The notes under the pieces were generated by a model. That model made no database searches. It was not told where the DNA came from and saw only the letters and a list, made by a program, of their open reading frames with translations. The position numbers were made by a program, and so were the translations under genes. 64,000 nt of DNA from a virus, in IMG/VR virus record IMGVR_UViG_3300024299_000011, positions 6,291 to 70,290 of that record. One strand, 5' to 3'. Positions 4,231 through 63,665 of this stretch are shown here, piece by piece. The first letter of the stretch is position 1, and each line of letters starts with the position of its first letter.

Positions 4231-4489
4231 CGACATTATAAAACATGAGAGATTTACTGACGTTGCTATACAGATATCAAAACCAGTATATGTTACAGAT
4301 TCGGGAAAGCTAAAGATCAGAGGTAACTGGCTTAATACTGGTAATCCATCTTTTGTCATAGGCTCGATGAGGAATATGGTCGGAAAGTCAACATTGATAA
4401 TACTTCCTGATGAGATTGAGAAATGGAGCATATGTTTAGATCCAGATGCTACGCATTTGAAAGGAACTAAGTGGGGGAGTTTGAAATGA
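4211..4489 (+). CDS. Hypothetical protein
   Basis: ORF in operon; likely start MILPKY after AAGGT. Confidence 0.55.
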   Translation: MILPKYNDIIKHERFTDVAIQISKPVYVTDSGKLKIRGNWLNTGNPSFVIGSMRNMVGKSTLIILPDEIEKWSICLDPDATHLKGTKWGSLK

Positions 4490-6273
4490 AGGTTGAATTG
4501 ATAGCAATGACAAAAGTTGTAAATGAGAAATTACTTAAAGAACTAAAAAGTAATTCTCCAGCAGAATTAATAATGTATTGCGCTAGGGTATCTAATCCAA
4601 ACGACCAGACATCCGGTAATACTAAATTATTAGAGTATTGCGCAAAACACAACCACTGGTCAGTATTTCAAATGAGTAATATGGTAGTTGAGATTGAAAC
4701 AAGTAGAGCAATAGCACAACAAATACTCAGACATTCTAGTTTTGATTTTCAAGAATTTTGTATGTCCGGAGATACTGAAGTTTATTTTGACTTACCTAAC
4801 GCAATTAAAAAAGGTAAAAGAAGTTTAAGTAGAATGAAACTTAAAGATTTATATAGAAAATGGTCAGAAGGAGCCCTTCCTATAAAACACAGATACAGCG
4901 GTAAGATGCAAAAAATGGAGATGAAAAGCCGGATACGTAGTATGTTTGTTAGGGTATATGACGAAAAAACAAAGAAATTATCTCATGCCCACATAAAAGA
5001 GGTATTTAAAACTGGCGTAAAAGATTTATTTGAAGTAGAATTAGAAAATGGAAAAAAGATTAAATGCACTAAAGAACATAAAGTACTCACTCAGTCTGGG
5101 TTCAAATCATTAGAAGATGAATTTGGATTACAGTTAATTAATAATATTGCAGTAATAGAAAAAAATGGATTTATAGGATGTAATGGAATTCCTCTACACC
5201 AAAGTTATACTTTTCTTAAAGAACAAAAGGAAATTCACTTAAAAACCGGAAATGGAGTTCAGGGGATTGCTGACGTATGTAACGTGTCCTATCATACAAT
5301 AAGAAAGTGGCTTAAAATTCATAAACTACAATTCTCTAAACAAGAAACAGCAGACATGACAACTATAAACGGCGGGGTTTGGAATAAAGGAAAGTCTGGA
5401 TACTCTTGGGGAAATCACAGTAAAGAAACCAGAGAAATAATGTCCAAAAAAGCAAGAAAAGGAAAAGACTCTAATTTTTGGAAGGGTGGAGTAACTAAAG
5501 AAAGGCAAAAAATACAAGCAGACATAAATAAGTATAGAATTGACATAATTAAAGATTATGGAGGTAAATGTGGGTTATGTGATAAAAAACTAAAAGGACA
5601 AACAGACTTACATCACATTATCCCAGTTAGCGATGATATGTCATTATCTAGAGAATATTCTAATTTAATGCCAACTCATAGAAGATGCCACATGAAGCAC
5701 CACAGTAAAGCTGGGGATTTGAAAAGGTGGAAAGAAGGTTCGAAAGGAAATACACTAACAGTTAATTGGGCTAAGATTAAAAAAGTTAAGTATTTAGGAA
5801 AAGAGATGACATACGATTTAGAAATAGATCACCCAAGTCATAATTACGTCGCAGACGGAGTTATAGTACATAATTCACAAAGATATAAAGAGATATCAGC
5901 GCTTGATGACTCTTTTGAGATATATGGAGCACGGAGTCAAGATAAGAATAACAGACAAAATAGTATAGATAATATGTCAGATGACGATCGTTTATGGTTT
6001 GAGGCAGCTCAGTTGGACATACAACAAGAATCTGTGGATAAGTATGAAGAGGCGCTATCTAGAGGGGTCGCCAAAGAACAAGCCAGATTCCTGCTACCAT
6101 TGAACGTTAAAACAAAACTATATATGAATGGGTCAATCAGATCTTGGATACACTATCTAATGGTTAGATGTAGACCAGAAACCCAGCTAGAACATAGAGA
6201 AATTGCTAATGAGATAAGGTGTATATTAATAAAAGAGTTTCCAGAACTAAAAGAAACTTTAGATTTTACTTGA
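4486..6273 (+). CDS. thyX: Flavin-dependent thymidylate synthase ThyX with intein
   Basis: YCARVS, HWSVFQ, SRAIAQQILRHSSFDFQEF|SQRY, KEQARFLLP, RSWIHYL..R....TQLEHR; likely ATG at 4486. Confidence 0.93.
   Translation: MKVELIAMTKVVNEKLLKELKSNSPAELIMYCARVSNPNDQTSGNTKLLEYCAKHNHWSVFQMSNMVVEIETSRAIAQQILRHSSFDFQEFCMSGDTEVYFDLPNAIKKGKRSLSRMKLKDLYRKWSEGALPIKHRYSGKMQKMEMKSRIRSMFVRVYDEKTKKLSHAHIKEVFKTGVKDLFEVELENGKKIKCTKEHKVLTQSGFKSLEDEFGLQLINNIAVIEKNGFIGCNGIPLHQSYTFLKEQKEIHLKTGNGVQGIADVCNVSYHTIRKWLKIHKLQFSKQETADMTTINGGVWNKGKSGYSWGNHSKETREIMSKKARKGKDSNFWKGGVTKERQKIQADINKYRIDIIKDYGGKCGLCDKKLKGQTDLHHIIPVSDDMSLSREYSNLMPTHRRCHMKHHSKAGDLKRWKEGSKGNTLTVNWAKIKKVKYLGKEMTYDLEIDHPSHNYVADGVIVHNSQRYKEISALDDSFEIYGARSQDKNNRQNSIDNMSDDDRLWFEAAQLDIQQESVDKYEEALSRGVAKEQARFLLPLNVKTKLYMNGSIRSWIHYLMVRCRPETQLEHREIANEIRCILIKEFPELKETLDFT
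4759..5874 (+). mobile_element. 372-aa intein with HNH homing endonuclease in ThyX
   Basis: Starts CMSGDTEV; block B IKCTKEHKVLT; HNH CGLC..DLHHIIP..NLMPTHRRCH; ends YVADGVIVHN|S. Confidence 0.93.
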
Positions 6274-6520: not shown

Positions 6521-7129
6521 ATGAACTTAAAATGGATAATTAACGGAATGAAGAACGCCAATCCAGATGAGGCTATTGCTTTTCACCTAAAAGCTTTGCC
6601 TATATTTATTATAGTTTGTCTGGCTTTTTACTTAACAGGTTGTGGTAGCAATCAAGTACAAGGCACAACGATAGTTGAAGTACCTAAGATTATAGAGACC
6701 ACTATAACAGAAGATACGATACAAGGTACATATTTCTTTGTAGAAGAGTCTAGTGGAGAGATTAGCGGAGCATTAGGCATTACTGTTGATTTTCTTGGCA
6801 GGATTGATGTTGAAGAAGTTGAGCAGTTTAGATCTACTAATTTTAATAGTACTTTCGGACTTCACCCAAGGATTTCATTTTCAAATATAACACAAAGAGA
6901 TGATGATACTGTAATATATGCAGGAGATGTTACTTATACTGCAGCTCATGATTTAGAGTCAGACGGGTCGACTACGAACTTATCGGCAGGAAGGCACTAT
7001 ACTGTATATACTTTATCATTTGATGAAAACGATGCGCTTGTATTGACAATACAGATACACTCAGGCAGTACAATATCTTCCGGTGGTATAAATAGTATTA
7101 TAATAGAACGAGAATTTAAGGAGTTATAA
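6521..7129 (+). CDS. Putative lipoprotein
   Basis: Hydrophobic stretch ending in lipobox LTGC, followed by a beta-rich domain. Confidence 0.6.
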   Translation: MNLKWIINGMKNANPDEAIAFHLKALPIFIIVCLAFYLTGCGSNQVQGTTIVEVPKIIETTITEDTIQGTYFFVEESSGEISGALGITVDFLGRIDVEEVEQFRSTNFNSTFGLHPRISFSNITQRDDDTVIYAGDVTYTAAHDLESDGSTTNLSAGRHYTVYTLSFDENDALVLTIQIHSGSTISSGGINSIIIEREFKEL

Positions 7130-12174: not shown

Positions 12175-14181
12175 TTATTTCACCAATTTCATCATCCTTC
12201 TATATTGAGGGTTTTGTAAGATATGGAACATAGCAGCTCGTCTACCTTTAACATCTTTTTGTGACATATTATCAATAAGTGTTGATAGTTTATCACCTTC
12301 TTCTCCATACTCTTCTCTAATCGACTGTGCCTGCGCTGTTAACTCTTCAGGACTCGCTTTTTCTGCATGTTTAAAAGCCCTTTGGTGTGTTTTATAAGGA
12401 GCTTCTTTAGCGTCTATTTTATTTTGATCTACTTTAGACGCATCTTCTATTAACTTAACGTTAGCCGGTTCATTAAGAGTTTTCATAACTAACCCCTTAA
12501 CTCCCCCAGGACTATCCATTGATTTTAACAACTTGCCTGATAAAACCATACCCTCTGAACCCATTTTAGCTAAATTACCAGCAACAGTTTTAATAAATTC
12601 TGGAGGTGCGCTCATTAGTTTATTAGCAGCTAAACCAGATACATTAGATCCTGCAGTAGCAACTGCTCTAGGAGTTCCTAGTAAAGTAAATGTAGATCCG
12701 CCTTTAATTATCTTTTCTGATAGATCTAAGCGACCAACGACATCAACCAATTCTTTTTCATACTTAGCAGCAATATTTGGTGATATTTGTCTTACATTTT
12801 CCACAACATCTGTTACAATCCTCCTAGCTTCATCTCCTGTGAGATTTTCACCCTCAAGCTTAGATAGTACTTTTGTTATCTTATCTTTAGTTTGTTCCGG
12901 TAAATTCTTTTCATTAACTTTCAACCTATCAAGTGTGTTTTTAATGAGACCATATTGTTTCTTTAATTCAGGCATACCTTCAGTAATATCACCTAACTTT
13001 TCACCAACACCTTTATATAACTCTCTAGCGGTTCCTGCAGGTTTAACCACTAGAGGAGACATACCAAATTGAGGTCTATATGCCTTAATAGCTAATTCAA
13101 AATCTCTAGCCTGTTCAGGAGTAACCATTACTTTTTTAGCTGTTTCTTTAGGTAATACAAGTCCTTCTGGTAAATCTTTTTTAGCAAAACCAGAGAACAT
13201 GTCATTAACTTTAGTTCCCTTTAATTTATTTATTTCAGCTTCTATGCCGCTGGCATAAGAACCAGTCTCTATAGTTCCGTGCTTTTTAATAGACTTTAGT
13301 TGTTTCATAGCTTCAGATATTTCATCAGTTAAATCAACTTTAGCCCCAGATTCCGTAGCTCTTTGTATTTCTTTTTGCATACCGCCACCGACTTTATCCT
13401 GTAAACCTTTTATGTCTTCAAATAACTCTCCACCTTTTTTAGAAACCAAATCCGCAGCTTCTCTTCTACCGGCAGAAGTGGCTAAAACTTCCCCTTTTTT
13501 TCCACGCTTAAACGATTCTATCATATCTTCAATAATTGGAACAGATTTAATTTTAGATCCAACACCTTTTACTGCTTTTATTCCAGACGTAGCTAGGGGA
13601 ATTAACGGCCCAGTAGCAGCTCCAATAGCAGCTCCCTCACCAGCACTCTCTAATCTATCTCCAACACCACCTTCACCCATACCAAATCCGGCAATAGCAC
13701 CAGTACCGGCACCTATTCCACTAGTAACGGCAACTTTACCTGCAGTACCTAGACCTTTAGCGTATTTATATGCTTTGGCGAACTTACCAGGACCTGCCAC
13801 ACCTCCAGCAAGGGTTCCTCCCATATATGTTCCAGGATGTTCTTCTGATGCTTGCGTATTTCTTCCTCGCTCAGCTTCTAAACCTTCTCTATATGATTGT
13901 AGTAGTTTTTCTTTATCTAATGTCGGGTCCCATTCGTCTCCAGCAACGCTAATATCAGTAACTGGACCACCTACTCCTTCTAATCCAATAGCTCTACCAG
14001 CAGCTTCAAAACCCCCAGCAATCTCATCACCAAACCCAAAAGTAGCTCCTTGAGAAACTCCTTGTAACGCAGCCTGAGCTTGTCCCATTGACTCTTCTTG
14101 AGGACCACCTTCATTAAGATATGCATCTGGATCAAAATCATCTTCAGCTAAATATGCATCTGGATCGAATGTATCTGCCAT
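12175..14181 (-). CDS. Internal virion/ejection protein
   Basis: FDPDAYL x2, QGATFGFGDE and Gly/Ala-rich helices typical of podovirus ejection proteins; synteny. Confidence 0.65.
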   Translation of the reverse strand: MADTFDPDAYLAEDDFDPDAYLNEGGPQEESMGQAQAALQGVSQGATFGFGDEIAGGFEAAGRAIGLEGVGGPVTDISVAGDEWDPTLDKEKLLQSYREGLEAERGRNTQASEEHPGTYMGGTLAGGVAGPGKFAKAYKYAKGLGTAGKVAVTSGIGAGTGAIAGFGMGEGGVGDRLESAGEGAAIGAATGPLIPLATSGIKAVKGVGSKIKSVPIIEDMIESFKRGKKGEVLATSAGRREAADLVSKKGGELFEDIKGLQDKVGGGMQKEIQRATESGAKVDLTDEISEAMKQLKSIKKHGTIETGSYASGIEAEINKLKGTKVNDMFSGFAKKDLPEGLVLPKETAKKVMVTPEQARDFELAIKAYRPQFGMSPLVVKPAGTARELYKGVGEKLGDITEGMPELKKQYGLIKNTLDRLKVNEKNLPEQTKDKITKVLSKLEGENLTGDEARRIVTDVVENVRQISPNIAAKYEKELVDVVGRLDLSEKIIKGGSTFTLLGTPRAVATAGSNVSGLAANKLMSAPPEFIKTVAGNLAKMGSEGMVLSGKLLKSMDSPGGVKGLVMKTLNEPANVKLIEDASKVDQNKIDAKEAPYKTHQRAFKHAEKASPEELTAQAQSIREEYGEEGDKLSTLIDNMSQKDVKGRRAAMFHILQNPQYRRMMKLVK

Positions 14182-48236: not shown

Positions 48237-48585
48237 TTCCAGCTATTTGTAAAAGATCCGCTTCGGTTAAACCGTCGGGTACTTTAGTATAGTCAGCATT
48301 TACTGTACTTTTATCGTCAAGTAAACGCTTATTTTTAATATGCAAGTCCAACGCTCTGGTTTCTTCTAAAGTTAATAGTCGAATGTTAGATATTGCTTCG
48401 ATGTTTTGAATCTGTACTTCCAGAATTCTTTGCTCTGGAGTTAATGCTAGATTAAGTATTAAATTTCTATCTACGTTCTGTAGTTTATCCACTTCTTTAA
48501 GCAATATAGTAACTGTATCTTTCAGCCCTTCATTTTCTTGCTTAAGTTCTAGATTTAAAGTCTGTAATTCACCTTTTGTGGACAT
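48160..48585 (-). CDS. Probable terminase small subunit
   Basis: Helical ORF overlapping the TerL start; synteny only. Confidence 0.5.
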   Translation of the reverse strand: MSTKGELQTLNLELKQENEGLKDTVTILLKEVDKLQNVDRNLILNLALTPEQRILEVQIQNIEAISNIRLLTLEETRALDLHIKNKRLLDDKSTVNADYTKVPDGLTEADLLQIAGSVNGDSEKKSKRRGKSKTSSKDTVE

Positions 48586-48860
48586 TAGAAGTATCTTTTT
48601 TCTTTAACTTGATCTGTAGCCTTAATGAAGTTCATTTTACTAAGAGCGCTTTTAACTTCTAATAAGTCTTTAGCAACTTCTTTATCTAAATTATAAGGTT
48701 GAAATCTTTTTAAATATTGAGTGTATCCATATAATGAAGCCAGTACCAATACTATGATGCTATCTGCAAACGATGGAGTTAGTATTATCATCTTACCAAC
48801 AAAAACAAGAAAAACTATAAGAGAGTAATTCAGAGATATATCTTTCAATTTTTTAAGCAT
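48585..48860 (-). CDS. 2-TM membrane protein (holin-like)
   Basis: Two hydrophobic helices; first gene of the late operon. Confidence 0.5.
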   Translation of the reverse strand: MLKKLKDISLNYSLIVFLVFVGKMIILTPSFADSIIVLVLASLYGYTQYLKRFQPYNLDKEVAKDLLEVKSALSKMNFIKATDQVKEKRYF

Positions 48861-51915: not shown

Positions 51916-52313
51916 AATTAATATTAACAATATCTTTACTACTATTAACAGCATGTTCCGGTTTCGAACGTACGGGATATATAGATCCTGAGTTTATACC
52001 ATACGTAGAGTTGTTTGAAGAATATAAAGGTAATAGTATAGGTAATATGGATATAGTTTTTGAAATCCACAAAAGACCTAAGGTTGGTGTTTGTCACTAT
52101 GCTGTTGAAATGCGCACAATCGGCATAGATCCTACATATTGGAAATCTGCCTCACCTGCTCGTAAAGAGAATTTGATATTTCACGAGTTAGGTCACTGTG
52201 ATCTTAACTTAAACCACACCGAGGAATACGGGATAATGTTCTTTTCTTTACTAGGTACTGATTTTTATAAAGAATATAGGGAAGATTTAATAGAAGACTT
52301 ATTCGGGAGGTAA
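51912..52313 (+). CDS. Lipoprotein zinc metallopeptidase (metzincin-like)
   Basis: Lipobox LTAC; HELGHCDLNLNH; GIM Met-turn. Confidence 0.82.
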   Translation: MKLILTISLLLLTACSGFERTGYIDPEFIPYVELFEEYKGNSIGNMDIVFEIHKRPKVGVCHYAVEMRTIGIDPTYWKSASPARKENLIFHELGHCDLNLNHTEEYGIMFFSLLGTDFYKEYREDLIEDLFGR

Positions 52314-52314
52314 A

Positions 52315-52746
52315 ATGGAAAAAGAATTAATGATATTAGTAGGGCCTATAGGTTCTGGTAAAACAACTTTTTCTAAAACACTTGAGAACGACACGTCTAT
52401 TCGTATATCGCAAGATGAGATGGGTAGGAAAGCTTATCTAGAGCATTTTAAAGCAGCTATCCGTAATGAAGTTCCAAGGATATTAATTGATCGTCAAAAC
52501 TTCAATAAAGAGCAACGTGAAAGATTTATAAAACCAGCTAGAGAAGCTGGGTACTGTGTGACCGTATTTGAACTAAAAACAAATACTGCTACATGTATAG
52601 AAAGAGTTGTTACTAGAGTTGGTCATCCGACTGTTGTAAGCGGAGATGTTGAGTTAGCTCAAGAGATAGTAAATAGGTATTTGATTAACTACGAAGCACC
52701 TACAGCAGATGAATATGATAATTTAAATATAGTGGAGGAATTATGA
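52315..52746 (+). CDS. P-loop kinase, polynucleotide-kinase (AAA_33) type
   Basis: LVGPIGSGKTT, ISQD, IDRQN...QR, CIERV..R..HP. Confidence 0.8.
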   Translation: MEKELMILVGPIGSGKTTFSKTLENDTSIRISQDEMGRKAYLEHFKAAIRNEVPRILIDRQNFNKEQRERFIKPAREAGYCVTVFELKTNTATCIERVVTRVGHPTVVSGDVELAQEIVNRYLINYEAPTADEYDNLNIVEEL

Positions 52747-53589: not shown

Positions 53590-54522
53590 ATGTTTAAAAA
53601 ATATAATTCAATTGAAAATTCATATCAACAGAAGTTTATTTTAAGAATGTTAGAACAATACCCTGAACTAAAGGATGCTAAGTATTCTATTAGGGAAAAA
53701 TTAGATGGGTCTAACTTACAATTATATTTTGAGACTAACAAACAAATGAGAGTCGGTAAAAGAACTTCCTTTTTAGAAGAAGGTGATAAGTTCTTTGATG
53801 TATGGAGTACTCTTAAAAAATACGAACCTCAGGTAATAAAACTACAACAATACGTTGATAATTACGGATGTCACTGTACCGTTAGGGTATTTGCCGAGTT
53901 ATACGGTAGTGGAGTACAAAAAAGAATAAATTACGGAGAAGAAAAGAGTATATCTTTTTTTGATATAGAAATTAATGATAAGATGTTATCTCAGAAACAA
54001 TTTGAACAAATTATGGCAGATTTACAAATTGATAATATAGCGCCTTTATTAAAGTATGTTGGCAGTTTAAAAGAAGCACTAGAATATAGTCCTGACTTTA
54101 ATAGTAAAGTACTTGGGGTAGAAAATAACCCATCTGAAGGCATAGTTATTAAACCTTATGAAAGAGAATACTACAGTAAAGTAGGATCTAGATTCTTATT
54201 AAAGAAAAAGGCTGATGCATTTTCTGAAAAAATGAAAGTAAAGCCTGGGAAGAAGCGTACTGACGAAGTCACTAAAATAGTTAACGCTAAAATTGAGTTC
54301 CAGTCTTATATAAATGACAATCGAGTTAAGAGTACTTTCTCTAAGCATGGAGAGATAGAATCTCCGGACCAACTTGGAAAGTATATTCAATTAGTGTTGG
54401 CCGATGCTAAGGGTGATTTCTTAAAAGAATATAATATTTCTGATTTAGATGATAAGGAGCTTAAGAAAATATACGGCTCTGGCGGAAAACACATAGTAGC
54501 ATTACTTAAAGGGTATTTATGA
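53590..54522 (+). CDS. RNA ligase 2 (Rnl2 family)
   Basis: FKKYNSIEN, EKLDGSN, AELYG, FFDI, EGIVIKP, LLKKK...FSE. Confidence 0.88.
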   Translation: MFKKYNSIENSYQQKFILRMLEQYPELKDAKYSIREKLDGSNLQLYFETNKQMRVGKRTSFLEEGDKFFDVWSTLKKYEPQVIKLQQYVDNYGCHCTVRVFAELYGSGVQKRINYGEEKSISFFDIEINDKMLSQKQFEQIMADLQIDNIAPLLKYVGSLKEALEYSPDFNSKVLGVENNPSEGIVIKPYEREYYSKVGSRFLLKKKADAFSEKMKVKPGKKRTDEVTKIVNAKIEFQSYINDNRVKSTFSKHGEIESPDQLGKYIQLVLADAKGDFLKEYNISDLDDKELKKIYGSGGKHIVALLKGYL

Positions 54523-56210
54523 AACGCTGGTTTACTTCAGACATTCACCTAGGACACAGGAACGTTATAGAGTATTGTGCTCGCCCCTACGCTAACGTTC
54601 ATGAAATGGATAAAGCAATAATTGAACAATGGAATTCGCAAGTAAATCCTGAAGATGAAGTATATTTTCTAGGGGACTTTGGTATTAATAAAAGAAAAGC
54701 TTTAGATAAAGAATTAGTTAATAGTTTGAACGGCGTCAAATATATAACATTAGGTAATCATGATTCTGGCTTCGTTCGTTGGCATAATAAAAAAAATATA
54801 GAAAGTATAGTCAATGGTTATATAAAATCGGGATGGGATGGTTGTGGGATTGAAGACCATCTATTACTGAAGAATGGGGTTGAAGTTATTATGACACACT
54901 TGCCTCCAGATAATAGTAGAGATACTCGTTACTCTAAATTTAAACTAGAAAACGATCCTAATAAAATATATTTAAGTGGACATCTTCATGGAATGTATCG
55001 CAAGAAAGATAATATGATTGATGTTGCGTTTGATGGGGAGCTTAAGTTATTATCTGAAGATGATATAGTTAATTTAATAGAAGATGAGAGGTCGTTTATT
55101 CCAACAAGATTAACAGAGCATTATAAAGAAGAGAATCTATTCCTGAAACCATTTGAAGATGAAGTTAAGAAGAAGAATTTACGTAAAGTTGTTAAAGGAG
55201 ATCTTGTACTTTATAACTATACAGATAAATGTACGTTTGATAGAGCTTGGAATGAAGTTACAATACATTCTCGTGGGCTAATCTTAAATAGAACTACAGG
55301 AGCTTTTGTTGCTGTCCCTTTTGAAAAGTTTTGGAATATAAATGAAATGCCAGTTACTCAATTAGAGAACCTTCCAGATGAACCATATACAGTTACAGAC
55401 AAGTGCGACGGTTCGTTAGGTATAATCCACCATCATAACAACAAATGGAACGTAGCAACTCGTGGGGCATTTTCTAGCCCACAAGCAGTAAAGGCTGAGG
55501 AGATATTAAAGAAATACGATATGAGTAAAGTATACACAAAATTAACCTTACTTGTTGAGATCATATATCCTGAAAATAAAATTGTTGCTAATTACGGAGA
55601 TGATGAGAAGTTAGTTTTACTTTCGATGGTAGATAGAGAGTCACAGCAAGAGCAAACTAGAATCCAGTGTGGTATGATATCAAAATGTACTGGAATTGAA
55701 TTAGTTAAAGAGTATAACCATACAATAGAAGAAATGATTGAACTAAAGAAGACCATACCTAAAGATGAAGAGGGTTTCGTTGTTAGATTTGAGTCAGGAT
55801 TGCGTGTTAAGATAAAAGGTGACGAGTATTGTAGAATTCATAAAATGATATCGCGCATGAGTCCCTTATCTTTCTGGGAATCTATGGATGATGGTAATGT
55901 TAACATCGATTATCTACAGGAATTGCCTGAAGAGTTTCGTGACGAGGCTGAGGAGATAACAGATAAGCTAGAATCTCAGTATAAAGACTTGCTTATAGAA
56001 ACATCGGAAGCGTTTAATGAAATTAAGGTAAAACTTGGACTATGTATATCAGAAAGTCTAACTGAAGATAAAAAGAAGCTTGGGTTGTATATAAAGAAAC
56101 ATCAACCAAAGCATGCTACCATATTCTGGGCATATTATTTAATGAGACCTGATAATATTGATAAATATATAAAAAGGATTATTAGACCAAAGGGGAATGA
56201 GTATATTTAA
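54519..56210 (+). CDS. Metallophosphoesterase fused to T4 Rnl1-like RNA ligase
   Basis: N-terminal SDIHLGH, LGD, GNHD, GHLH; C-terminal YNYT..W..RGLI..PFEKFWN, KCDGSLG, ATRG.F, EGFVV, RVKIK. Confidence 0.88.
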   Translation: MKRWFTSDIHLGHRNVIEYCARPYANVHEMDKAIIEQWNSQVNPEDEVYFLGDFGINKRKALDKELVNSLNGVKYITLGNHDSGFVRWHNKKNIESIVNGYIKSGWDGCGIEDHLLLKNGVEVIMTHLPPDNSRDTRYSKFKLENDPNKIYLSGHLHGMYRKKDNMIDVAFDGELKLLSEDDIVNLIEDERSFIPTRLTEHYKEENLFLKPFEDEVKKKNLRKVVKGDLVLYNYTDKCTFDRAWNEVTIHSRGLILNRTTGAFVAVPFEKFWNINEMPVTQLENLPDEPYTVTDKCDGSLGIIHHHNNKWNVATRGAFSSPQAVKAEEILKKYDMSKVYTKLTLLVEIIYPENKIVANYGDDEKLVLLSMVDRESQQEQTRIQCGMISKCTGIELVKEYNHTIEEMIELKKTIPKDEEGFVVRFESGLRVKIKGDEYCRIHKMISRMSPLSFWESMDDGNVNIDYLQELPEEFRDEAEEITDKLESQYKDLLIETSEAFNEIKVKLGLCISESLTEDKKKLGLYIKKHQPKHATIFWAYYLMRPDNIDKYIKRIIRPKGNEYI

Positions 56211-56269: not shown

Positions 56270-57229
56270 ATGGGATTTAAAGATTACGTAAAAGTACACG
56301 ATAAATATGTGGTACAGCTAGACAGTGATAGACAACCTAAACTACCTGCAGGACATTACCAGCTACATTATATACAAGAAGCTGATCAATTGTTATTTGA
56401 GAGAATTAGCTTTAATTCTGATGAGATCCTAGAACTTCCGTCAAAAGAGTTTCAATTAGTAGCAGGACAGATAGACACATTCCTGGGCGATGATAGCCGC
56501 AAGTTATTTAATGATTATAATTTTGTATATAAAAGATCGGTGTTAATGCATGGAGTCCCAGGTACAGGAAAAACCATTCTGGCAAACAGGATTGCTAATA
56601 AAGTTGTTGCTGGAGGTGGTGTTGTTTTATTCAACCCGAACCCTCAAATATTAACTAAAGCTTTTAAAGTGTTTGATGATATTCAACCTGATACTAAAAT
56701 AGTAGTTATATTTGAAGAGTTGGATCAGTTACTTAAAAATTATGAAGGTGAGTTATTACATATTTTAGATGGGGAAGTACAGAAAGATAATATTGTATAT
56801 ATAGCAACTACGAATTATATATCTAAAGTCCCTGCTAGAATAATGAGACCTGGTAGATTTTCATCTATAGTTCAGATCCAATACCCAGATGCTAAGTGTA
56901 GAGAGTACTACCTTGATAAAAAGATAGGACATATTGATTCAAAAGAAGAGATTAAATCTATAGTTAAAAAAACTGATGGGTTTTCTATTGACGAATTAAA
57001 AGAAGTTGTACTATCTAATAAGTGCTTACAAGTTCCTCTTGATGACGTTATTGGTAGAATAAATGAAACTAAGGAACTATGTAAGAACGACTCAACCTTT
57101 AATGAGTATGAAGATAGGTATGAAGACGGTCCTTTTCGTAGTGATAAGTATAGACTTAGAGATTTAATGTATGAAATGAGAGACGCTCAAGAATATCAAG
57201 CAACGAATAACATAATGGGGAACAAATGA
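56270..57229 (+). CDS. AAA+ ATPase
   Basis: GVPGTGKT, IFEELD, LDG, ATTN, RPGRF. Confidence 0.9.
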   Translation: MGFKDYVKVHDKYVVQLDSDRQPKLPAGHYQLHYIQEADQLLFERISFNSDEILELPSKEFQLVAGQIDTFLGDDSRKLFNDYNFVYKRSVLMHGVPGTGKTILANRIANKVVAGGGVVLFNPNPQILTKAFKVFDDIQPDTKIVVIFEELDQLLKNYEGELLHILDGEVQKDNIVYIATTNYISKVPARIMRPGRFSSIVQIQYPDAKCREYYLDKKIGHIDSKEEIKSIVKKTDGFSIDELKEVVLSNKCLQVPLDDVIGRINETKELCKNDSTFNEYEDRYEDGPFRSDKYRLRDLMYEMRDAQEYQATNNIMGNK

Positions 57230-59059
57230 TAAAAGTAAATATAGATATTAATCAATTAAAGAATGAATTAACTATGATACACAATGAGCTATTTGCATCA
57301 ATAAACGGAACAGATAATCAACGAAGAGACGCTGTTAATCTTGTAGTAGAAAAGATACGTACTTTAAAAAACCAAATAGATAATATTGAGGTTATAGTAA
57401 AATAATTTTAACAGGAGATTTGAACGATTAAATATTATAAAGACAGACTGAAATTGTTATTTTTTGATTTGATTTGTTTATTAATTTTTACTTTATTAAT
57501 TATTGCACCGTTTTTTACGGGTTCTTAACAAAGGGGTTGATATGCAATTAATATGCCAAAGTAATTTTAACAGTAGAGAGGATTTATGGAAAACGAAGAA
57601 ATAAGAAAGATTAATTATCACGGTTGTCCTTCTTGCGGTGAAGAATTTTCTTATGGTGACAGTGTTCAGCATTTTAATGATAAATATTCAGAAGAAAATA
57701 AAAGACTAAGACGGTTGAGAACCAGAGACCGTATTATGGCAATTGGTGTTTACATTATCTTATTTACATTATACGTGACCAAGTCTTAATAAAGGAATAT
57801 ATGGAAATAGTTTTAAATTTTTTAGAAAATAATTGGATATGGTTTCTTGCATTTTTCGTTTTATTTATAGCTGTAAATATTTCAGCATTTAGTTTTAATG
57901 TAGAACTATATTTTATAACTATGTTTTTGAGCTGGGCCATATTTTTTATATGGTTAGGTTCGTTATTTTAACATTAGGAGAATAGGTGGAAAGTGATAAT
58001 TTTGAACCCATTGTAATATTTTTATTACTTTTTATATTGCTGCAACTTACTTTCATGAGATGTGGCGTTTAATTAACACAGAAAGCAGGTATTAAATGGA
58101 GACTAAAATAGTTAAAAGTACGGCTGGTGAGTATGCCATAAAGACAAAAAGATGGTGGCGGCCTTGGTATGCATTTTATCAAGAGCTTGTTTGTGCGGAA
58201 TGTTTTAGCGTTATAATATTTAAAACTTTTGATGAAGCTAAAGAATATGAAAAGAAAATATTAGAAGATCGTGTCTACATTACTTGGTCCGATGCGTGAA
58301 CTTAACAGGAGAGGTCATGGAACCTAAAAAAATTACAGCATCACTACACGTTTCAATGAACTTTAACTGTCCATATTGTGATGAGTATTTAGATTTATTT
58401 GATATTAGGCACATGAATGATGATGGTGAATTATGGAAGTTAATGAGTGCAGAATATAGGTATGACAAAAATCCATGGGAAAACATAAGCTCGGATGGCG
58501 AAGAATTTGAATGTCCAAAGTGTAAAAAAGAGCTTTTGTTGGACAAGCTAGAGTATTGAATGAACTTAACAAAAACGGTCAGAGAAAGGAATAAATTACA
58601 TGCCTTATATTAAACGAGACAGGAGAGATGTGATAAACGCCCAAGATATGAAGATATTAAGTTACGATGACATAGACAGTGCCGGAGAGATTCAATACGC
58701 TATTGCTGTTATATTAAAATCTTACATGGAACGTAAAGATCTTACTTATCAAAACTGTAACGATGTTGTGGGCGCCTTAGCTGGGGCTCAGATGGAATAT
58801 TACAGAAAGGTAGTTGGTCCTTATGAGAGCGAAAAGGAATTAGAGAATGGGTCAGTCTAAGAAGATTGGTTACTGTTGTGGTATAGATTATACCTGGGAA
58901 CTAGGAGAGGCTCTTGGTGGGGTTAAAGTGTACGCATCTGTAGAAGATCTAAAAGAAGATCATAAATGCTGGAAAGAATGTGGTATAGTAGAAGTTGAAG
59001 TTACTAAGACTAAAGTTATAGAAAAGGCTCGAAGACATAAAGGAAGTAAAGATGATTAA
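57226..59059 (+). other. Array of small hypothetical ORFs (57586, 58096, 58317, 58600, 58847 and several under 60 aa)
   Basis: Short ORFs with SD motifs, several with CxxC pairs or TM helices. Confidence 0.6.
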
Positions 59060-60296: not shown

Positions 60297-60627
60297 TTCT
60301 GTAACTTTGAGGAATCTTAAAGAAGACCTATTAACCAGAGCTAACAGTCTGGAGTACAATCAATCTAAATATGCACCAAAGCACTTAACATTCCAGGCTC
60401 TGGCAGATAAATATAACGTTAACTGGGTTACGGTCAAAAGGTACAATACTAAAATGGGTCTACAGAGACCTGCTATAGATACTAAAAAACTAGATCACGA
60501 TATAGCCCTACAATTCCTAAATGGAGTAGAGATTGCTGAGAAATATGGAATAGATGTTAAAACTGTGTATAATCGAAAGAAGAAACTGGGTCTAGTAGTC
60601 CCTAGATCACCCAATACCCCTATATAG
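60286..60627 (+). CDS. Tandem HTH DNA-binding protein
   Basis: TFQALADKYNVNWVTVKRY and GVEIAEKYGIDVKTVYNRKKKLGL. Confidence 0.75.
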   Translation: MGLNSVTLRNLKEDLLTRANSLEYNQSKYAPKHLTFQALADKYNVNWVTVKRYNTKMGLQRPAIDTKKLDHDIALQFLNGVEIAEKYGIDVKTVYNRKKKLGLVVPRSPNTPI

Positions 60628-60816
60628 TAGTCCATAAGAGCTAATATCTAGCTTAATACCCCATTATAATAGTCCATAAGACAAACGAGGATCGTTTTTA
60701 TGGTATTTTTTCTATTAAGCCCGTCAATATGTACATTATCACGAAAAAAGGGCGTACCGAGCGATATACAGGCTTGTATGGTCCCACTAGAACCAACATA
60801 TATCCTGAAATAACCC

Positions 60817-60845
60817 TTGACATCCAAAATATAGTGTATTATACT
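60817..60845 (+). promoter_or_regulatory. Sigma70 promoter
   Basis: TTGACA, 17 bp, TATACT. Confidence 0.75.
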
Positions 60846-60850
60846 TGATG

Positions 60851-60912
60851 TGAGGTCGTTGAAACCCATCAACATTAAAGTTCTGGTCTGCGTAGGGGAA
60901 CCAGACACCTCG
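60851..60912 (+). ncRNA. Candidate small structured RNA/leader (three-way junction)
   Basis: TGAGGT/ACCTCG closing helix with GTTGA/TCAAC and TCTGGT/ACCAGA hairpins, starting at the predicted TSS. Confidence 0.45.
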
Positions 60913-60934
60913 TTTTATACACTAAGGAGATAAA

Positions 60935-61171
60935 ATGAACATGGAAGATATTGAATTTTTTGACGGAGATCTAATGGACTTTCTTCGCCTATTATCTAAA
61001 AACGATGATGGTTCCGGCGTAGGTGGCGTTAAAGTCATTACAGACGATATGGGCGATATTATCGTAGACGTTAAGTCTAATTTACACTTCAGAGCTGATC
61101 GCGAAGAAATGATTGCGTTTTATGATGTCATGGATCAAGTAAATGCCGTGAGGACAGACCAATTAAACTAA
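60935..61171 (+). CDS. Hypothetical acidic protein
   Basis: AAGGAG SD. Confidence 0.65.
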   Translation: MNMEDIEFFDGDLMDFLRLLSKNDDGSGVGGVKVITDDMGDIIVDVKSNLHFRADREEMIAFYDVMDQVNAVRTDQLN

Positions 61172-61281
61172 TAATCCTGTCTTTATTACTATCAGGATGT
61201 GTGTCTGTTAGTGTTGAGGTTCGCGAATGCGCTGTCTCAGAGGGTGGTCGCCAAGTTATCTGTCGAGTTAAAGTAAAATAG
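61162..61281 (+). CDS. 39-aa lipoprotein with probable ATT start (not in ORF track)
   Basis: GAGG SD, then ATT AAA CTA ATA ATC CTG: (M)KLIILSLLLSG|CVSVSVEVREC...; no in-frame NTG between the upstream stop and the ATT. Confidence 0.6.
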   Translation: MKLIILSLLLSGCVSVSVEVRECAVSEGGRQVICRVKVK

Positions 61282-61471
61282 CAGCAAGCTCATCTGTAGC
61301 GTCTTGAAGGCTATCTCCATAAACCACTATCGTTGACTCATCATCCAATATGACCCCGATCTCTACAACATAGTCCAAATGAGGATGTACGTAGTGTATT
61401 TCTAGGCTATCTACACTGTGGTGCGTATTTTCTAATATTTCATTTATTGTATATTCATATATTATAGCCAT
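61268..61471 (-). CDS. Hypothetical acidic protein
   Basis: AAGGAG SD; promoter at 61582-61609 on the - strand. Confidence 0.65.
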   Translation of the reverse strand: MAIIYEYTINEILENTHHSVDSLEIHYVHPHLDYVVEIGVILDDESTIVVYGDSLQDATDELAAILL

Positions 61472-61581
61472 TATAACTCCTTATTAAAAAGCAATACAGA
61501 CAATTCATCCTAGGGGCTGTACGCAACCTCTGCCTTGTTGTTTTACATCCTGAGCTAGAAAACTGGATATGTACTACGTAT

Positions 61582-61645
61582 AGTATACATTATTTATATC
61601 ATAAGTCAATTAATTCTTTACCTTTTCAGGATTATGTGTTATTCT
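61582..61645. promoter_or_regulatory. Back-to-back divergent sigma70-type promoters
   Basis: - strand TTGACT, 16 bp, TATACT (61609-61582); + strand TTTACC, 17 bp, TG-n-TATTCT (61617-61645). Confidence 0.55.
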
Positions 61646-61650
61646 GGTTA

Positions 61651-61840
61651 TGTTGTAGCAATGTGGAAAGCTGTGGTTACTCATCTCGGAGTTATAAATG
61701 CTGTAAGAAGCCGGGCCACTGGAGACATATTAGTTGCCGAGATACCATCAGCTGTCGGTCCTTTATGGCGATAGTTACGGTTTGATACTCGTCTGATCAA
61801 CGAGAAAGATGGGAGCCCCAGTAGCGCGGGGTCTACAACA
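61651..61840 (+). ncRNA. Candidate 190-nt structured non-coding RNA
   Basis: GC-enriched intergenic segment; termini TGTTGTAG/CTACAACA pair; long internal helix and further hairpins; promoter directly upstream, T-run downstream. Confidence 0.65.
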
Positions 61841-62002
61841 TTTTATATGCAGTATAGTGCATATTATTGTGAGTATATAATGTAGTATAGTGCATAAAAC
61901 GTATCTCATTATGTACATTGTATAGAATGCGTTACAGTAACAAAATAATGTTAGGATGACGGAAATAGTGTATTAACTTGGATTTACTCTAAAAAAAATA
62001 TA

Positions 62003-62302
62003 ATGGAGATTGAATTAATGAAGTATAATAAAAAAGTAAAGTATGATGTAGAGGAGATATTAATGTTGGTAAACGACTTTACTGAAGAGAAGGGTATAAG
62101 TCCTACTCATTGCTATTATAATCCAGTATTTGTGGATGTAGATCACATGTACCGTGAATACGAGTGTCTAGCTAAGTATTCTAGCTCTGTAAATCAAAAT
62201 ATGTTAGGAATTACTGTGTTTCATGTGTATGGAGTTAACTTTATCGAAGATGTTACATTGTCGGACCAATTAAACATAGTTGCAATCAATGTTATTGAAT
62301 AA
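62003..62302 (+). CDS. Hypothetical protein
   Basis: 99-aa ORF flanked by a direct repeat. Confidence 0.5.
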   Translation: MEIELMKYNKKVKYDVEEILMLVNDFTEEKGISPTHCYYNPVFVDVDHMYREYECLAKYSSSVNQNMLGITVFHVYGVNFIEDVTLSDQLNIVAINVIE

Positions 62303-62532
62303 ATGATGTATTAGTTTAAATTTACTCTAAAAAAATATAATGGGCGTATATTAGATAATACACTCTTTTAAAATGGTGTCATATGTTCTCTTCCCCTCAC
62401 AGAGGTATTTATAATAATAAAAGGGGTCCTACCCCCTACCCCCCCCCATACCCTTATCCTGCCATACCCATACCAACACACTGTCTCAATCTGACACACA
62501 TATATTTATTTTAATTATTTACATTAAAACCC

Positions 62533-62560
62533 TCAAGTTTTACAATCAAACAACCGAGAA
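62533..62560 (+). promoter_or_regulatory. Sigma28 (FliA)-like promoter ahead of early-type genes
   Basis: TCAAGTTT-N12-ACCGAGAA versus consensus TAAAGTTT-N11-GCCGATAA. Confidence 0.5.
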
Positions 62561-62603
62561 GTAATCATGTGGCAAACAAGCCAACCAACCAAAGGGGTAA
62601 CTA

Positions 62604-62813
62604 ATGCACATTAAAGCTACAGTTATAAGTATAACAGACAATAATGATCCAAACCAAAACGAGTTCTATGACATGGGGTTCCACGATCACCGATACACTA
62701 TCACACTAGAACTTCCAAAACAATACACGAATAGTCCAAATCACACTAAAACAATCGAGACTGACGATATCAGTAGTTATAAATTAAATGATACAATAAA
62801 CATTTTAAACTAA
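62604..62813 (+). CDS. Hypothetical early protein
   Basis: AAAGGGGT SD. Confidence 0.6.
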   Translation: MHIKATVISITDNNDPNQNEFYDMGFHDHRYTITLELPKQYTNSPNHTKTIETDDISSYKLNDTINILN

Positions 62814-62833
62814 AACCAATAAAGGGGTACAAT

Positions 62834-63166
62834 ATGAAACAGTATACATTATTAGATGCATGCATTAGACACGGAGCTACTAATAACAGACTCACTAGAT
62901 TAGCATGTGACTTAGTTGGCGCTGCATGGGACTCTCAAGTATCGATAACAGATCATGATAATGGTTTGACAACCATAATAGGGCGCTGTAGCCTTGACAA
63001 CAACCACCACCACTTAATTTGGTCTAAAATCTATATAGATCAAGTAGACACTAACAAAAAGCCGTGTGGCGTATACTTAGTAGAGGAGCTGAAAAGACGG
63101 CTATTAGACTCCGGCTGGTATCGAGATGGACTAAAAAGAGCTATTAAGTTGAATTTAATTAAATAA
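62834..63166 (+). CDS. Hypothetical early protein
   Basis: Preceded by the repeated 23-bp leader. Confidence 0.65.
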   Translation: MKQYTLLDACIRHGATNNRLTRLACDLVGAAWDSQVSITDHDNGLTTIIGRCSLDNNHHHLIWSKIYIDQVDTNKKPCGVYLVEELKRRLLDSGWYRDGLKRAIKLNLIK

Positions 63167-63195
63167 TATAACTAACACCAATAAAGGGGTACAAT

Positions 63196-63567
63196 ATGAG
63201 AACACGAAACATGATATTAAGTGATATAAAGCGTTTTACAGAGTCATTGCAATACATTCAAGAAAGGGTAGACCAGATCAATACCCTCCCCAACGGGCCA
63301 TTCAAGACCGAACTACTCGAGGATTATTCACGTGACCTTGAGAGAGACCAGAGCAATCTAGATCATTGGACTAATGAGCTTGAATTATTCGATGGCACTA
63401 ATGTAACTGATATTCCAACTAGACTAATGACCAAGTTAGATCAAACTAAGATCCAGCACGCTTTAAAGAACCTAGTTGAGACGTTTGGCCAAGACGCTGT
63501 TATAAAGGCAAACCAGTCAATGAAACTCACAAGACGTCAATCTAAGACACTTAAGAAGGCGGCATAA
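63196..63567 (+). CDS. Hypothetical early protein
   Basis: Preceded by the repeated 23-bp leader. Confidence 0.65.
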   Translation: MRTRNMILSDIKRFTESLQYIQERVDQINTLPNGPFKTELLEDYSRDLERDQSNLDHWTNELELFDGTNVTDIPTRLMTKLDQTKIQHALKNLVETFGQDAVIKANQSMKLTRRQSKTLKKAA

Positions 63568-63665
63568 TATGTTGCAAGCATTTATAAAGATATTCAAACA
63601 AGGCCCCATGACACGGGCTAAGTACTTTAAAACAAACGTCAAACGACCACTAGAGGGGCTATAAC

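What the first reader, a model, noticed from the sequence alone, without database searches (positions are those of the whole stretch)
61651..61840. 190-nt structured ncRNA candidate with a tRNA-like end
Seen: the 5' TGTTGTAG pairs with the 3' CTACAACA, directly preceded by hairpin GCCCC-AGTAGCGC-GGGGT (acceptor plus T-arm-like geometry). Internal helix AGCTG-TGGT...ATCTCGG / CCGAGAT-ACCA-T-CAGCT; hairpin CTCGT/ACGAG; an alternative pairing CTCATCT/AGATGGG competes with the long helix. It starts at a predicted TSS and ends at TTTT. I do not recognise it as tmRNA, SRP, 6S, RNase P or a known ribozyme. Inference: an undescribed phage RNA, possibly a Y RNA- or tmRNA-like mimic.
Basis: partly seen in the sequence, partly recalled or inferred. 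Interest (0 to 1): 0.75.

Follow-up and report, generated by a model that had tools for sequence, protein, structure and literature searches.

The report
Orphan GC-rich phage RNA candidate
A 190-base GC-rich stretch between genes of an uncultured marine phage may encode a small RNA, but its tRNA-like shape is not supported and no relatives could be found to test the idea.

Summary
The stretch is a real oddity: 48% GC in a 35% GC phage, in the top 0.4% of 190-nt windows. Its two ends pair unusually well (-32.6 kcal/mol; 0 of 1000 shuffles; rank 3 of 63,700 arm pairs; 1 of 118 GC-matched bins as strong). One metatranscriptome holds a 154-nt contig inside it.

The overall fold is no better than shuffles (z -1.0 to -1.5). 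The T-arm-like hairpin and the long internal helix belong to a fold 3.7 kcal/mol above the optimum, with ensemble probability 0.03 or less. ARAGORN, Rfam, the YrlA motif, a Ro60 gene and a reverse transcriptase were all negative.

No homologue of the element, of its 46-aa ORF or of its flanking region could be fetched, so neither covariation nor codon conservation could be tested.

Best reading (about 0.4): an orphan plus-strand small RNA with a rod-like end pairing. It is not a tRNA, tmRNA or Y-RNA mimic. Rivals are a small ORF, part of a longer transcript, or a functionless GC-rich remnant. Interest is modest.

The parts
61651..61840 (+). GC-rich island; candidate small RNA (the finding)
   Evidence: GC 0.484, top 0.36% of 190-nt windows. 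MFE -58.8/-59.4 kcal/mol, z -1.05/-1.46. No Rfam or tRNA match.
61651..61689 (+). 5' arm of the long-range terminal rod
   Evidence: In the MFE it pairs with 61805-61840 in helices of 8+1+4+4+4+7 bp. Duplex energy -32.6 kcal/mol, 0 of 1000 shuffles as good, rank 3 of 63,700.
61805..61840 (+). 3' arm of the terminal rod.
Evidence: The hairpin has ensemble probability 0.01.
61669..61753 (+).
   Evidence: Present by direct reading. Ensemble probability 0.03 or less. As an isolated 85-nt stretch it folds at -25.7 kcal/mol, z -1.42.
61788..61804 (+). Hairpin CUCGU/ACGAG, present in both folds
   Evidence: Ensemble probability about 0.5. Appears in the folds.
61617..61645 (+). Possible sigma-70-type promoter: TTTACC, 17 nt, TGtTATTCT. 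It would start transcription at about 61651
   Evidence: Direct reading: 8 of 12 plus an extended -10 TG. Below the threshold of the scan, so it was not listed there.
61582..61609 (-). Promoter-like site for the leftward 67-aa gene, back-to-back with the plus-strand site
   Evidence: TTGACT, 16 nt, TATACT; 10 of 12.
61634..61774 (+). 46-aa ORF overlapping the element; a 37-aa version starts at 61661
   Evidence: ORF listed. Codon score 0.36, like neighbouring small genes at 0.25-0.46. SD pairing is -3.4/-2.7 kcal/mol, against -5.4 to -9.1 for 14 of the 16 neighbouring genes printed; the two exceptions are a doubtful minus ORF and the mis-set 62003 start. No homologue was found among 1.84 billion representatives.
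61688..61706 (+). RBS-like GGAG, then 6 nt, then ATG CTG TAA (a two-codon mini-ORF). It resembles the RBS of the neighbouring minus-strand gene
   Evidence: Inverted repeat I1 pairs 61462-61480 with 61688-61706: 19 nt, 84%. SD pairing about -6.1 kcal/mol. Its antisense ranks 42 of 42,646 windows for pairing with that RBS.
61676..61829 (.). Stretch covered by a 154-nt contig of metatranscriptome run X19
   Evidence: record 7, depth figure 19.7. The other six X19 contigs on 60400-63600 have 2-5.7. The tool warns that contigs show neither strand, ends nor level, and that DNA can be present in RNA libraries.
61847..61896 (.). Two copies of the palindromic motif ATGYAGTATAGTGCATA, 33 nt apart, around a TATAAT. 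Operator-like or promoter-like
   Evidence: 4 matches in the window against 0.59 expected.
61268..61471 (-). Neighbouring 67-aa gene
   Evidence: Strong SD at -8.8 kcal/mol. Three homologues at 67-73% identity, aligned.
62018..62302 (+). Downstream 94-aa gene. The 99-aa ORF starts at 62003; the likely start is 62018, behind GGAG
   Evidence: One search lists the ORF. In one search the database form, P0001, is 94 aa.

Best explanation
The island 61651-61840 is most likely the gene of an orphan, phage-encoded small non-coding RNA of about 190-200 nt. It would be made rightward from a weak extended -10 promoter that sits back-to-back with the leftward promoter of the 67-aa gene, in an early-type region of small, separately promoted genes.

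Its first and last roughly 40 nt pair into a 28-bp, G-U-containing rod that closes a junction of short hairpins.

Shown: the composition anomaly, the unusual end-to-end pairing, the absence of any known family, and the presence of the stretch in one RNA library.

Inferred: the promoter, the strand, that the RNA is a separate unit, and its role. I infer that the paired ends protect it from exonucleases, and that it acts as a stable regulatory or protein-binding RNA rather than as an antisense RNA, because no convincing target pairing was found. It is not a tRNA, tmRNA or Y-RNA mimic.
For: GC is 0.484 against 0.351, top 0.36% of windows. It is one of 2 GC-rich islands among the 19 gaps of 150 nt or more in the record.

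The end arms pair at -32.6 kcal/mol, with 0 of 1000 shuffles as good. That is rank 3 of 63,700 arm pairs. Only 1 of 118 GC-matched bins is as strong. P1 has ensemble probability about 1.0.

The rod needs G-U pairs, so it is specific to the plus strand: the same arms on the minus strand are not among the 25 best.

The promoter-like TTTACC-17-TGtTATTCT ends 6 nt before the first paired base (reading). It faces away from the 10-of-12 minus-strand promoter at 61609-61582.

The ORF starts have weak SD pairing, -3.4 and -2.7 kcal/mol, where most real neighbours have -5.4 to -9.1. The 61634 start lies inside the promoter spacer.

The ORF has no protein homologue among 1.84 billion representatives. 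The only hits are itself and two tandem-repeat artefacts.

Run X19, a metatranscriptome, holds a 154-nt contig at 61676-61829.
Against: The whole-molecule fold is not better than dinucleotide shuffles: z -1.46 and -1.05. The MFE structure has frequency 0.005 and differs from the centroid.

A minus-strand pairing across 61691-61850 is even stronger, -35.2 kcal/mol, rank 1. The strand evidence therefore conflicts.

No terminator is called at the 3' end.

No homologue exists in anything I could reach, so there is no covariation.

Codon periodicity in the ORF frame is coding-like: GC1/2/3 are 0.56/0.52/0.38 and G1 is 0.40. The codon score is 0.36, as good as neighbouring genes, and only 7% of off-frame windows score as high.

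The RNA-library contig shows neither strand, ends nor level, and such libraries can carry DNA.

GC-matched controls give a chance of only about 1-3% per region. That is modest after post-hoc choice of the boundaries.
Confidence: 0.4

Rival explanations
1. It is a small protein-coding gene: the 46-aa ORF 61634-61774, or its 37-aa version from 61661. The pairings are incidental.
For: An open frame exists. Codon score is 0.36, against 0.25-0.46 for neighbouring small genes, and only 7% of off-frame windows score as high. GC3 is lower than GC1, and G1 is 0.40. Gene callers have called it: the exact sequence is on record on 12 contigs.
Against: SD pairing is -3.4/-2.7 kcal/mol, while most neighbouring genes have -5.4 to -9.1. 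AGGA lies only 2 nt before the 61634 ATG. There is no homologue among 1.84 billion representatives, although the adjacent 67-aa gene has three at 67-73% identity. The A/V/G-rich composition and 48% GC are unlike the phage's other genes. The best of six frames was chosen after the fact.
Confidence: 0.15
2. It is a functionless or DNA-level feature. It could be a decayed fragment of foreign, higher-GC DNA such as a gene remnant, or a protein-binding or origin-like site, with no RNA-level role.
For: The fold z-score is not significant on either strand. Strong pairings occur on both strands. There is residual codon periodicity without a usable start. The whole region 59-64 kb has no relatives in IMG/VR. 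Repeated palindromic motifs flank the island.
Against: No donor was found. The plus-frame peptide hit nothing but itself. The 53-aa minus-frame peptide hit nothing among longer proteins. An 18-mer search gave only 8 chance matches of 18-20 nt in GTDB genomes. The end pairing is stronger than 117 of 118 GC-matched bins. The sequence is invariant on 12 contigs, but those are near-identical strains.
Confidence: 0.25
3. It is part of a longer plus-strand transcript: a structured 5' leader of the downstream gene at 62018, not a separate RNA.
For: No terminator-like site lies between the element and 62018. A second plus-strand promoter-like site at 61556-61584 lies upstream.
Against: Palindromic operator-like motifs around a TATAAT lie between the element and the gene. 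This suggests that the gene has its own promoter. No riboswitch or leader family matched.
Confidence: 0.1
4. The functional strand is the minus strand: an RNA, or a long 5' leader of the 67-aa gene, whose segment 61706-61688 can mask that gene's ribosome-binding site.
For: The best long-range duplex in the whole window is on the minus strand at 61691-61850, -35.2 kcal/mol. The minus-strand fold z is -2.17. Inverted repeat I1 pairs 61688-61706 with the RBS at 61462-61480, 84% of 19 nt. It ranks 42 of 42,646 windows.
Against: The 10-of-12 minus-strand promoter at 61609-61582 lies downstream of the element, and no minus-strand promoter was called in 61850-62002. The anti-RBS match is explained by a common RBS sequence of this phage: an equally good or better match is antisense to another gene's RBS near 7120. 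In my own shuffles z is -1.52.
Confidence: 0.1

Closest known systems
Bacterial and phage Y RNAs of the YrlA type (Chen et al. 2014, PMC4201824; I saw the search listing, and passages)
   Same: A non-coding RNA of similar size whose 5' and 3' ends pair into a long stem. The type also occurs in phages. An RNA-repair context is loosely reminiscent: this phage encodes Rnl2-like and phosphoesterase-Rnl1 proteins.
   Different: YrlA RNAs are encoded next to a Ro60 (TROVE) gene and carry a GNCGAAN0-1G motif plus T- and D-arm-like stem-loops. Here the best TROVE match is 13.1 bits against a cut-off of 23, and it lies about 13 kb away. There is no GNCGAA and no TTCRA. No Rfam family matched.
tmRNA
   Same: The paired 5' and 3' ends abut a hairpin, and there is an internal short ORF.
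   Different: ARAGORN found no tmRNA and Rfam found none. By direct reading, there is no G-U at the third pair, no CCA end and no T-loop.
Phage P1/P7 c4 and P4 CI antisense RNAs. Recalled from memory: small phage regulatory RNAs matured by RNase P through an acceptor/T-arm-like stack
   Same: A small phage RNA in a regulatory spacer, with a possible stack of 8 + 5 bp in the suboptimal fold.
   Different: No Rfam family matched. The stack is not in the favoured fold. No target pairing stands out. Processing cannot be tested here.
   Same: Orphan phage-encoded stable RNAs of 120-140 nt with paired ends and no known function.
   Different: As I recall, those lie within a tRNA gene cluster. Here no tRNA gene exists in the window or in the rest of the record (L031).

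Membership tests
tRNA / tRNA-like domain | Recognised by tRNA models | tested here: not met
   ARAGORN found 0 genes in the window. No Rfam tRNA hit appeared at gathering score or at E up to 10.
tRNA / tRNA-like domain | 5-bp T stem with a 7-nt T-loop (UUCRANY; consensus recalled from memory) | tested here: not met
   The loop is 8 nt, AGUAGCGC. There is no TTCRA anywhere in the element. The hairpin has ensemble probability 0.01.
tRNA / tRNA-like domain | Acceptor stem stacked on the T stem, with a 3' NCCA or a site for it | tested here: inconclusive
   An 8-bp plus 5-bp abutting stack exists only in the fold at -55.1 against -58.8 kcal/mol. The 3' strand is followed by UUUU, not CCA.
tmRNA | tRNA-Ala-like ends (G-U third pair, CCA) and detection by ARAGORN or Rfam | tested here: not met
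   The third pair is U-A.
Y RNA (YrlA type) | Encoded adjacent to a Ro60/TROVE gene | tested here: not met
   The best PF05731 match in the record is 13.1 bits, below the cut-off of 23, at window 48385-48606. The record is 83% complete, so a gene on the missing part is not excluded.
Y RNA (YrlA type) | GNCGAAN0-1G motif and T/D-like stem-loops | tested here: not met
   There is no GNCGAA and no CGAA in 61651-61845.
Y RNA (YrlA type) | Long stem formed by the 5' and 3' ends | tested here: met
   A 28-bp rod pairs 61651-61689 with 61805-61840.
Retron msr-msd RNA | Flanking inverted repeats next to a reverse transcriptase gene | tested here: not met
   No PF00078 match at E up to 1 in the record.
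Any Rfam 15 family (6S, SRP, RNase P, ribozymes, riboswitches, phage RNAs) | Covariance-model match | tested here: not met
   0 matches at gathering score in the whole window. At E up to 10 only mir-471, SBWMV UPD-PKb, DUF2815, Pseudomonas sRNA P1, SMAD5-AS1_3 and snoR111 matched, all far below their gathering scores.
Small protein-coding gene | Start codon with a ribosome-binding site like the phage's other genes | tested here: not met
   -3.4 and -2.7 kcal/mol, against a median of -5.95 over 90 ORFs and -5.4 to -9.1 for most neighbours.
Small protein-coding gene | Codon-level signal and homologues | tested here: inconclusive
   Codon score 0.36, like the neighbours. No homologue beyond itself.
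Independent sRNA gene | Own promoter and intrinsic terminator | tested here: inconclusive
   The promoter scores 8 of 12 plus TG by reading and is not listed. No terminator-like site was called at 61815-61850.
Independent sRNA gene | Conserved structure with covariation | not testable with these tools
   No homologue could be fetched.

The most novel reading that the evidence does not exclude
The island encodes a new class of phage small RNA with two mutually exclusive architectures that share the same 3' segment. One is an end-to-end rod (61651-61689 paired with 61805-61840). The other is a compact four-hairpin fold with an acceptor/T-stem-like 13-bp stack. The RNA would switch between them, or be processed from one of them, to act as a decoy or scaffold for host or phage RNA-handling enzymes. 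This phage carries two RNA ligases and a phosphoesterase.
Probability: 0.1. Interest if true: 0.6.

Novelty: new member of a known kind. Interest (0 to 1): 0.3.

Why it matters
If it is real, it would add an orphan small RNA to an uncultured marine phage lineage. The nearest cultured phage has 29.5% identity in the large terminase. Phages of this group carry several unexplained GC-rich intergenic islands.

Phage-encoded stable RNAs other than tRNAs are few, and their roles are mostly unknown. As it stands the case rests on one sequence, so it tests no open question. Its value is as a flagged candidate for stranded metatranscriptome mapping.

Tried and rejected
Known RNA families. Rfam at gathering score found nothing on the whole window. 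Rfam at E up to 10 on 61400-62050 and on 61640-61850 gave only noise. ARAGORN found nothing.

Similar DNA:
- blastn against 50,697 phage records: none.
- Exact 28-mer in IMG/VR: none.
- blastn of the spacer against 5 related virus records: three short matches of 19-26 nt, one inside a small ORF at a non-syntenic place, judged chance.
- nhmmer against about 0.36 Mb of relatives: best E 2.8.
- Covariance model R1, built from the single sequence with its MFE structure: only itself in 422,046 bases and nothing in 5 whole records.

Synteny:
- The large terminase gave 12 loci and the AAA protein gave 2.
- Whole contigs G001-G004 were compared. Homology to the window stops at about 58860.
- The flanking proteins of 99, 239, 113 and 123 aa have no relatives in IMG/VR.
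- The 67-aa neighbour has three homologues. Its alignment A1 found no locus in metagenome contigs, viral contigs or genome contigs, nor in 5 records.

Pattern scans. The 17-mer in metagenome contigs gave 117 stretches, all in unrelated contexts and mostly GC-rich (median GC 0.63). The longest alignment to the element was 33 nt. The 18-mer in genome contigs gave 8 matches of 18-20 nt in unrelated bacteria.

Protein readings. phmmer of the 46-aa ORF found itself plus two tandem-repeat proteins, whose scores add up over 10 and 5 repeats; I rejected these as artefacts. The ESM Atlas gave scores of 0.80 or less, which are leads only. The 53-aa minus-frame peptide found nothing among longer proteins. 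tblastn of the frame against the relatives gave a best E of 0.06.

Target search. RNAduplex of the element against the start regions of the window's ORFs of 50 aa or more (the call printed no count) gave a best of -41.1 kcal/mol. Ten shuffled queries reached up to -39.9 for the plus strand and -48.4 for the minus strand. This was uninformative.

MITE or transposon idea (inverted ends). There is a single copy in the record and none in the relatives. Host genomes are unknown and were not searched.

Origin-of-replication idea: not tested.

GC-rich islands of relatives share no similarity with the element. The best E involving this spacer was 0.015.

RNA runs without cover. In one search, runs X15, X20 and X24 have contigs on the flanks but none over 61555-61860. 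X15 covers 61419-61554 and 61861-62437. The tool states that a hole proves nothing, so I draw no conclusion from it.

Supplements of PMC4201824, which hold its covariance models and tables, were not opened and may list phage Y RNAs that I could not compare.

Full report
Where it lies. The window is bases 6291-70290 of a 70,290-nt linear IMG/VR virus record, estimated 83% complete. It is found in seawater metagenomes. It encodes a portal protein and a large terminase, a thymidylate synthase with an HNH insert, an Rnl2-like ligase and a phosphoesterase-Rnl1 fusion. The nearest cultured phage has 29.5% identity in the large terminase.

The finding sits in a 531-nt spacer, 61472-62002. On one side is a leftward 67-aa gene (61268-61471) with a strong ribosome-binding site. 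On the other is a rightward gene whose likely start is 62018.

The observation. The island is compositionally real. Its GC is 0.484 against a mean of 0.351, reached by only 0.36% of 190-nt windows. Of 19 gaps of 150 nt or more in the record, only this one and the next hold a GC-rich island.

The usual test for a structured RNA fails, however. The plus-strand MFE is -59.4 kcal/mol, with z -1.46 and 15 of 200 shuffles as good. My own shuffles gave -1.05. Sub-domains score between -2.2 and +1.0 on either strand.

It uses the 'competing' CUCAUCU/AGAUGGG pair and extends the terminal helix into a 28-bp rod, 61651-61689 paired with 61805-61840. With those helices enforced, the best fold is a tight four-hairpin junction at -55.1 against -58.8 kcal/mol. 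That is a near-optimal alternative which the energy model cannot exclude.

The end-to-end pairing does stand out. It is -32.6 kcal/mol, against -17.4 +/- 3.5 for shuffled arms, with 0 of 1000 as good. It ranks third of 63,700 arm pairs scanned on both strands of the window. Only 1 of 118 GC-matched 300-nt bins is as strong, and 4 of 118 reach -30. After post-hoc choice of the boundaries this is suggestive, not decisive.

The strongest pair of all lies on the minus strand across 61691-61850, at -35.2 kcal/mol. The strand evidence therefore conflicts.

Signals. TTTACC, a 17-nt spacer and TGtTATTCT end 6 nt before 61651 (reading). This scores 8 of 12 plus an extended -10 TG. It is below the threshold of the scan, which lists instead a 10-of-12 minus-strand promoter at 61609-61582 and a 9-of-12 plus-strand site at 61556-61584. 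The two -35 boxes sit back-to-back, which fits a divergent control region.

No terminator-like site is called after the element. Two copies of the palindromic motif ATGYAGTATAGTGCATA flank a TATAAT just downstream.

Is it a known RNA? No. Rfam 15 gives nothing at gathering score and only noise at E up to 10. ARAGORN finds no tRNA or tmRNA.

For Y RNAs of the YrlA type, the passages of PMC4201824 that I read name three features: adjacency to Ro60, a GNCGAAN0-1G motif, and T- and D-like stem-loops. The record has no TROVE match above cut-off (13.1 against 23 bits). The element has no GNCGAA and no TTCRA. No reverse transcriptase is present.

Is it a gene? A 46-aa ORF (61634-61774) overlaps it. 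Its codon score is 0.36, the same as neighbouring small genes (0.25-0.46), and only 7% of off-frame windows score as high. GC falls from codon position 1 to position 3.

Its starts have weak Shine-Dalgarno pairing, -3.4 and -2.7 kcal/mol. Among the 16 neighbouring genes printed, 14 have -5.4 to -9.1; the two exceptions are a doubtful minus-strand ORF and the mis-set 62003 start. The 61634 start lies inside the putative promoter.

phmmer against 1.84 billion representatives found only the ORF itself plus two tandem-repeat artefacts. The adjacent 67-aa gene, by contrast, has three homologues at 67-73% identity. The exact ORF sequence is on record on 12 contigs, with no variant members.

Expression. 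Four metatranscriptome runs were laid as contigs. X19 holds a 154-nt contig at 61676-61829 with a depth figure of 19.7; its other six contigs on 60400-63600 have 2-5.7. The tool warns that contigs show neither strand, ends nor level, and that DNA can be present in such libraries. I count this as a weak hint only.

Relatives. All routes failed, as detailed under Tried and rejected. Homology with related phage contigs ends near 58860. The region 59-64 kb is orphan in IMG/VR. The contigs of the 67-aa gene's homologues are not in the collections I could scan. Pattern scans returned only chance matches. A covariance model found only itself. Neither covariation nor codon-level conservation could therefore be tested.

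Verdict. I put about 0.4 on an orphan plus-strand small RNA with protective end pairing. I put 0.25 on a functionless or DNA-level GC-rich remnant, 0.15 on a small ORF, 0.1 on a leader of the downstream gene and 0.1 on a minus-strand RNA. The tRNA, tmRNA and Y-RNA mimic reading is not supported. Interest is modest (0.3) until relatives or stranded reads are available.

Noticed in passing
window 4471-6273 (+): A 600-aa ORF has thymidylate synthase matches at both ends (residues 42-96 and 469-597) and HNH endonuclease matches in the middle (about 258-435). It looks like a thyA gene interrupted in frame by an HNH element, either an intein or a read-through intron ORF.
   Followed up: no
window 53590-56210 (+): An RNA-repair-like pair: an Rnl2-type ligase (310 aa) followed by a calcineurin-like phosphoesterase fused to an Rnl1-type ligase (563 aa). 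The pair is conserved in G001 and G002 at 52-62% identity. No tRNA gene is present in the window or the rest of the record.
   Followed up: partly
window 62303-62603: The next spacer (301 nt) holds a C-rich, strongly skewed tract at about 62380-62500, with GC skew down to -0.75. It begins with a 34-nt copy (85% identity) of the sequence just upstream of gene 62018: 61969-62002 against 62307-62339, core TTTACTCTAAAAAAATATAATGG.
   Followed up: partly
window 62583-62603, 62813-62833, 63175-63195: Three consecutive genes (62604, 62834, 63196) share a nearly identical upstream context, CCAAYAAAGGGGTA..., which suggests a repeated translation or regulatory signal.
   Followed up: no
L032 6414-6608, 10874-11324, 12951-13412: A related phage contig carries three copies of a GC-rich intergenic repeat of about 120-240 nt (73-85% identity, with internal repeats). 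The repeat is unrelated to the element here. No Rfam or tRNA match covers it.
   Followed up: partly
G003 56938-57300 and G004 52196-52544: GC-rich intergenic islands of two related phages share a 64-nt match (73% identity, E 8e-7). This is a possible conserved non-coding element of this phage group.
   Followed up: no
window 13606-13810 (-): The only other place in the window with a long-range 40-nt arm duplex as strong as the element's (-35.2 kcal/mol). It lies inside the 668-aa ORF 12175-14181.
   Followed up: no
window 60825-60860 and 62518-62546 (+): Good sigma-70-type promoters by my reading of the spacer sequences: TTGACA-17-TATACT and TTTACA-17-TACAAT. RNA-run contigs of X15 begin shortly downstream of them, at 60867 and 62578.
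   Followed up: partly
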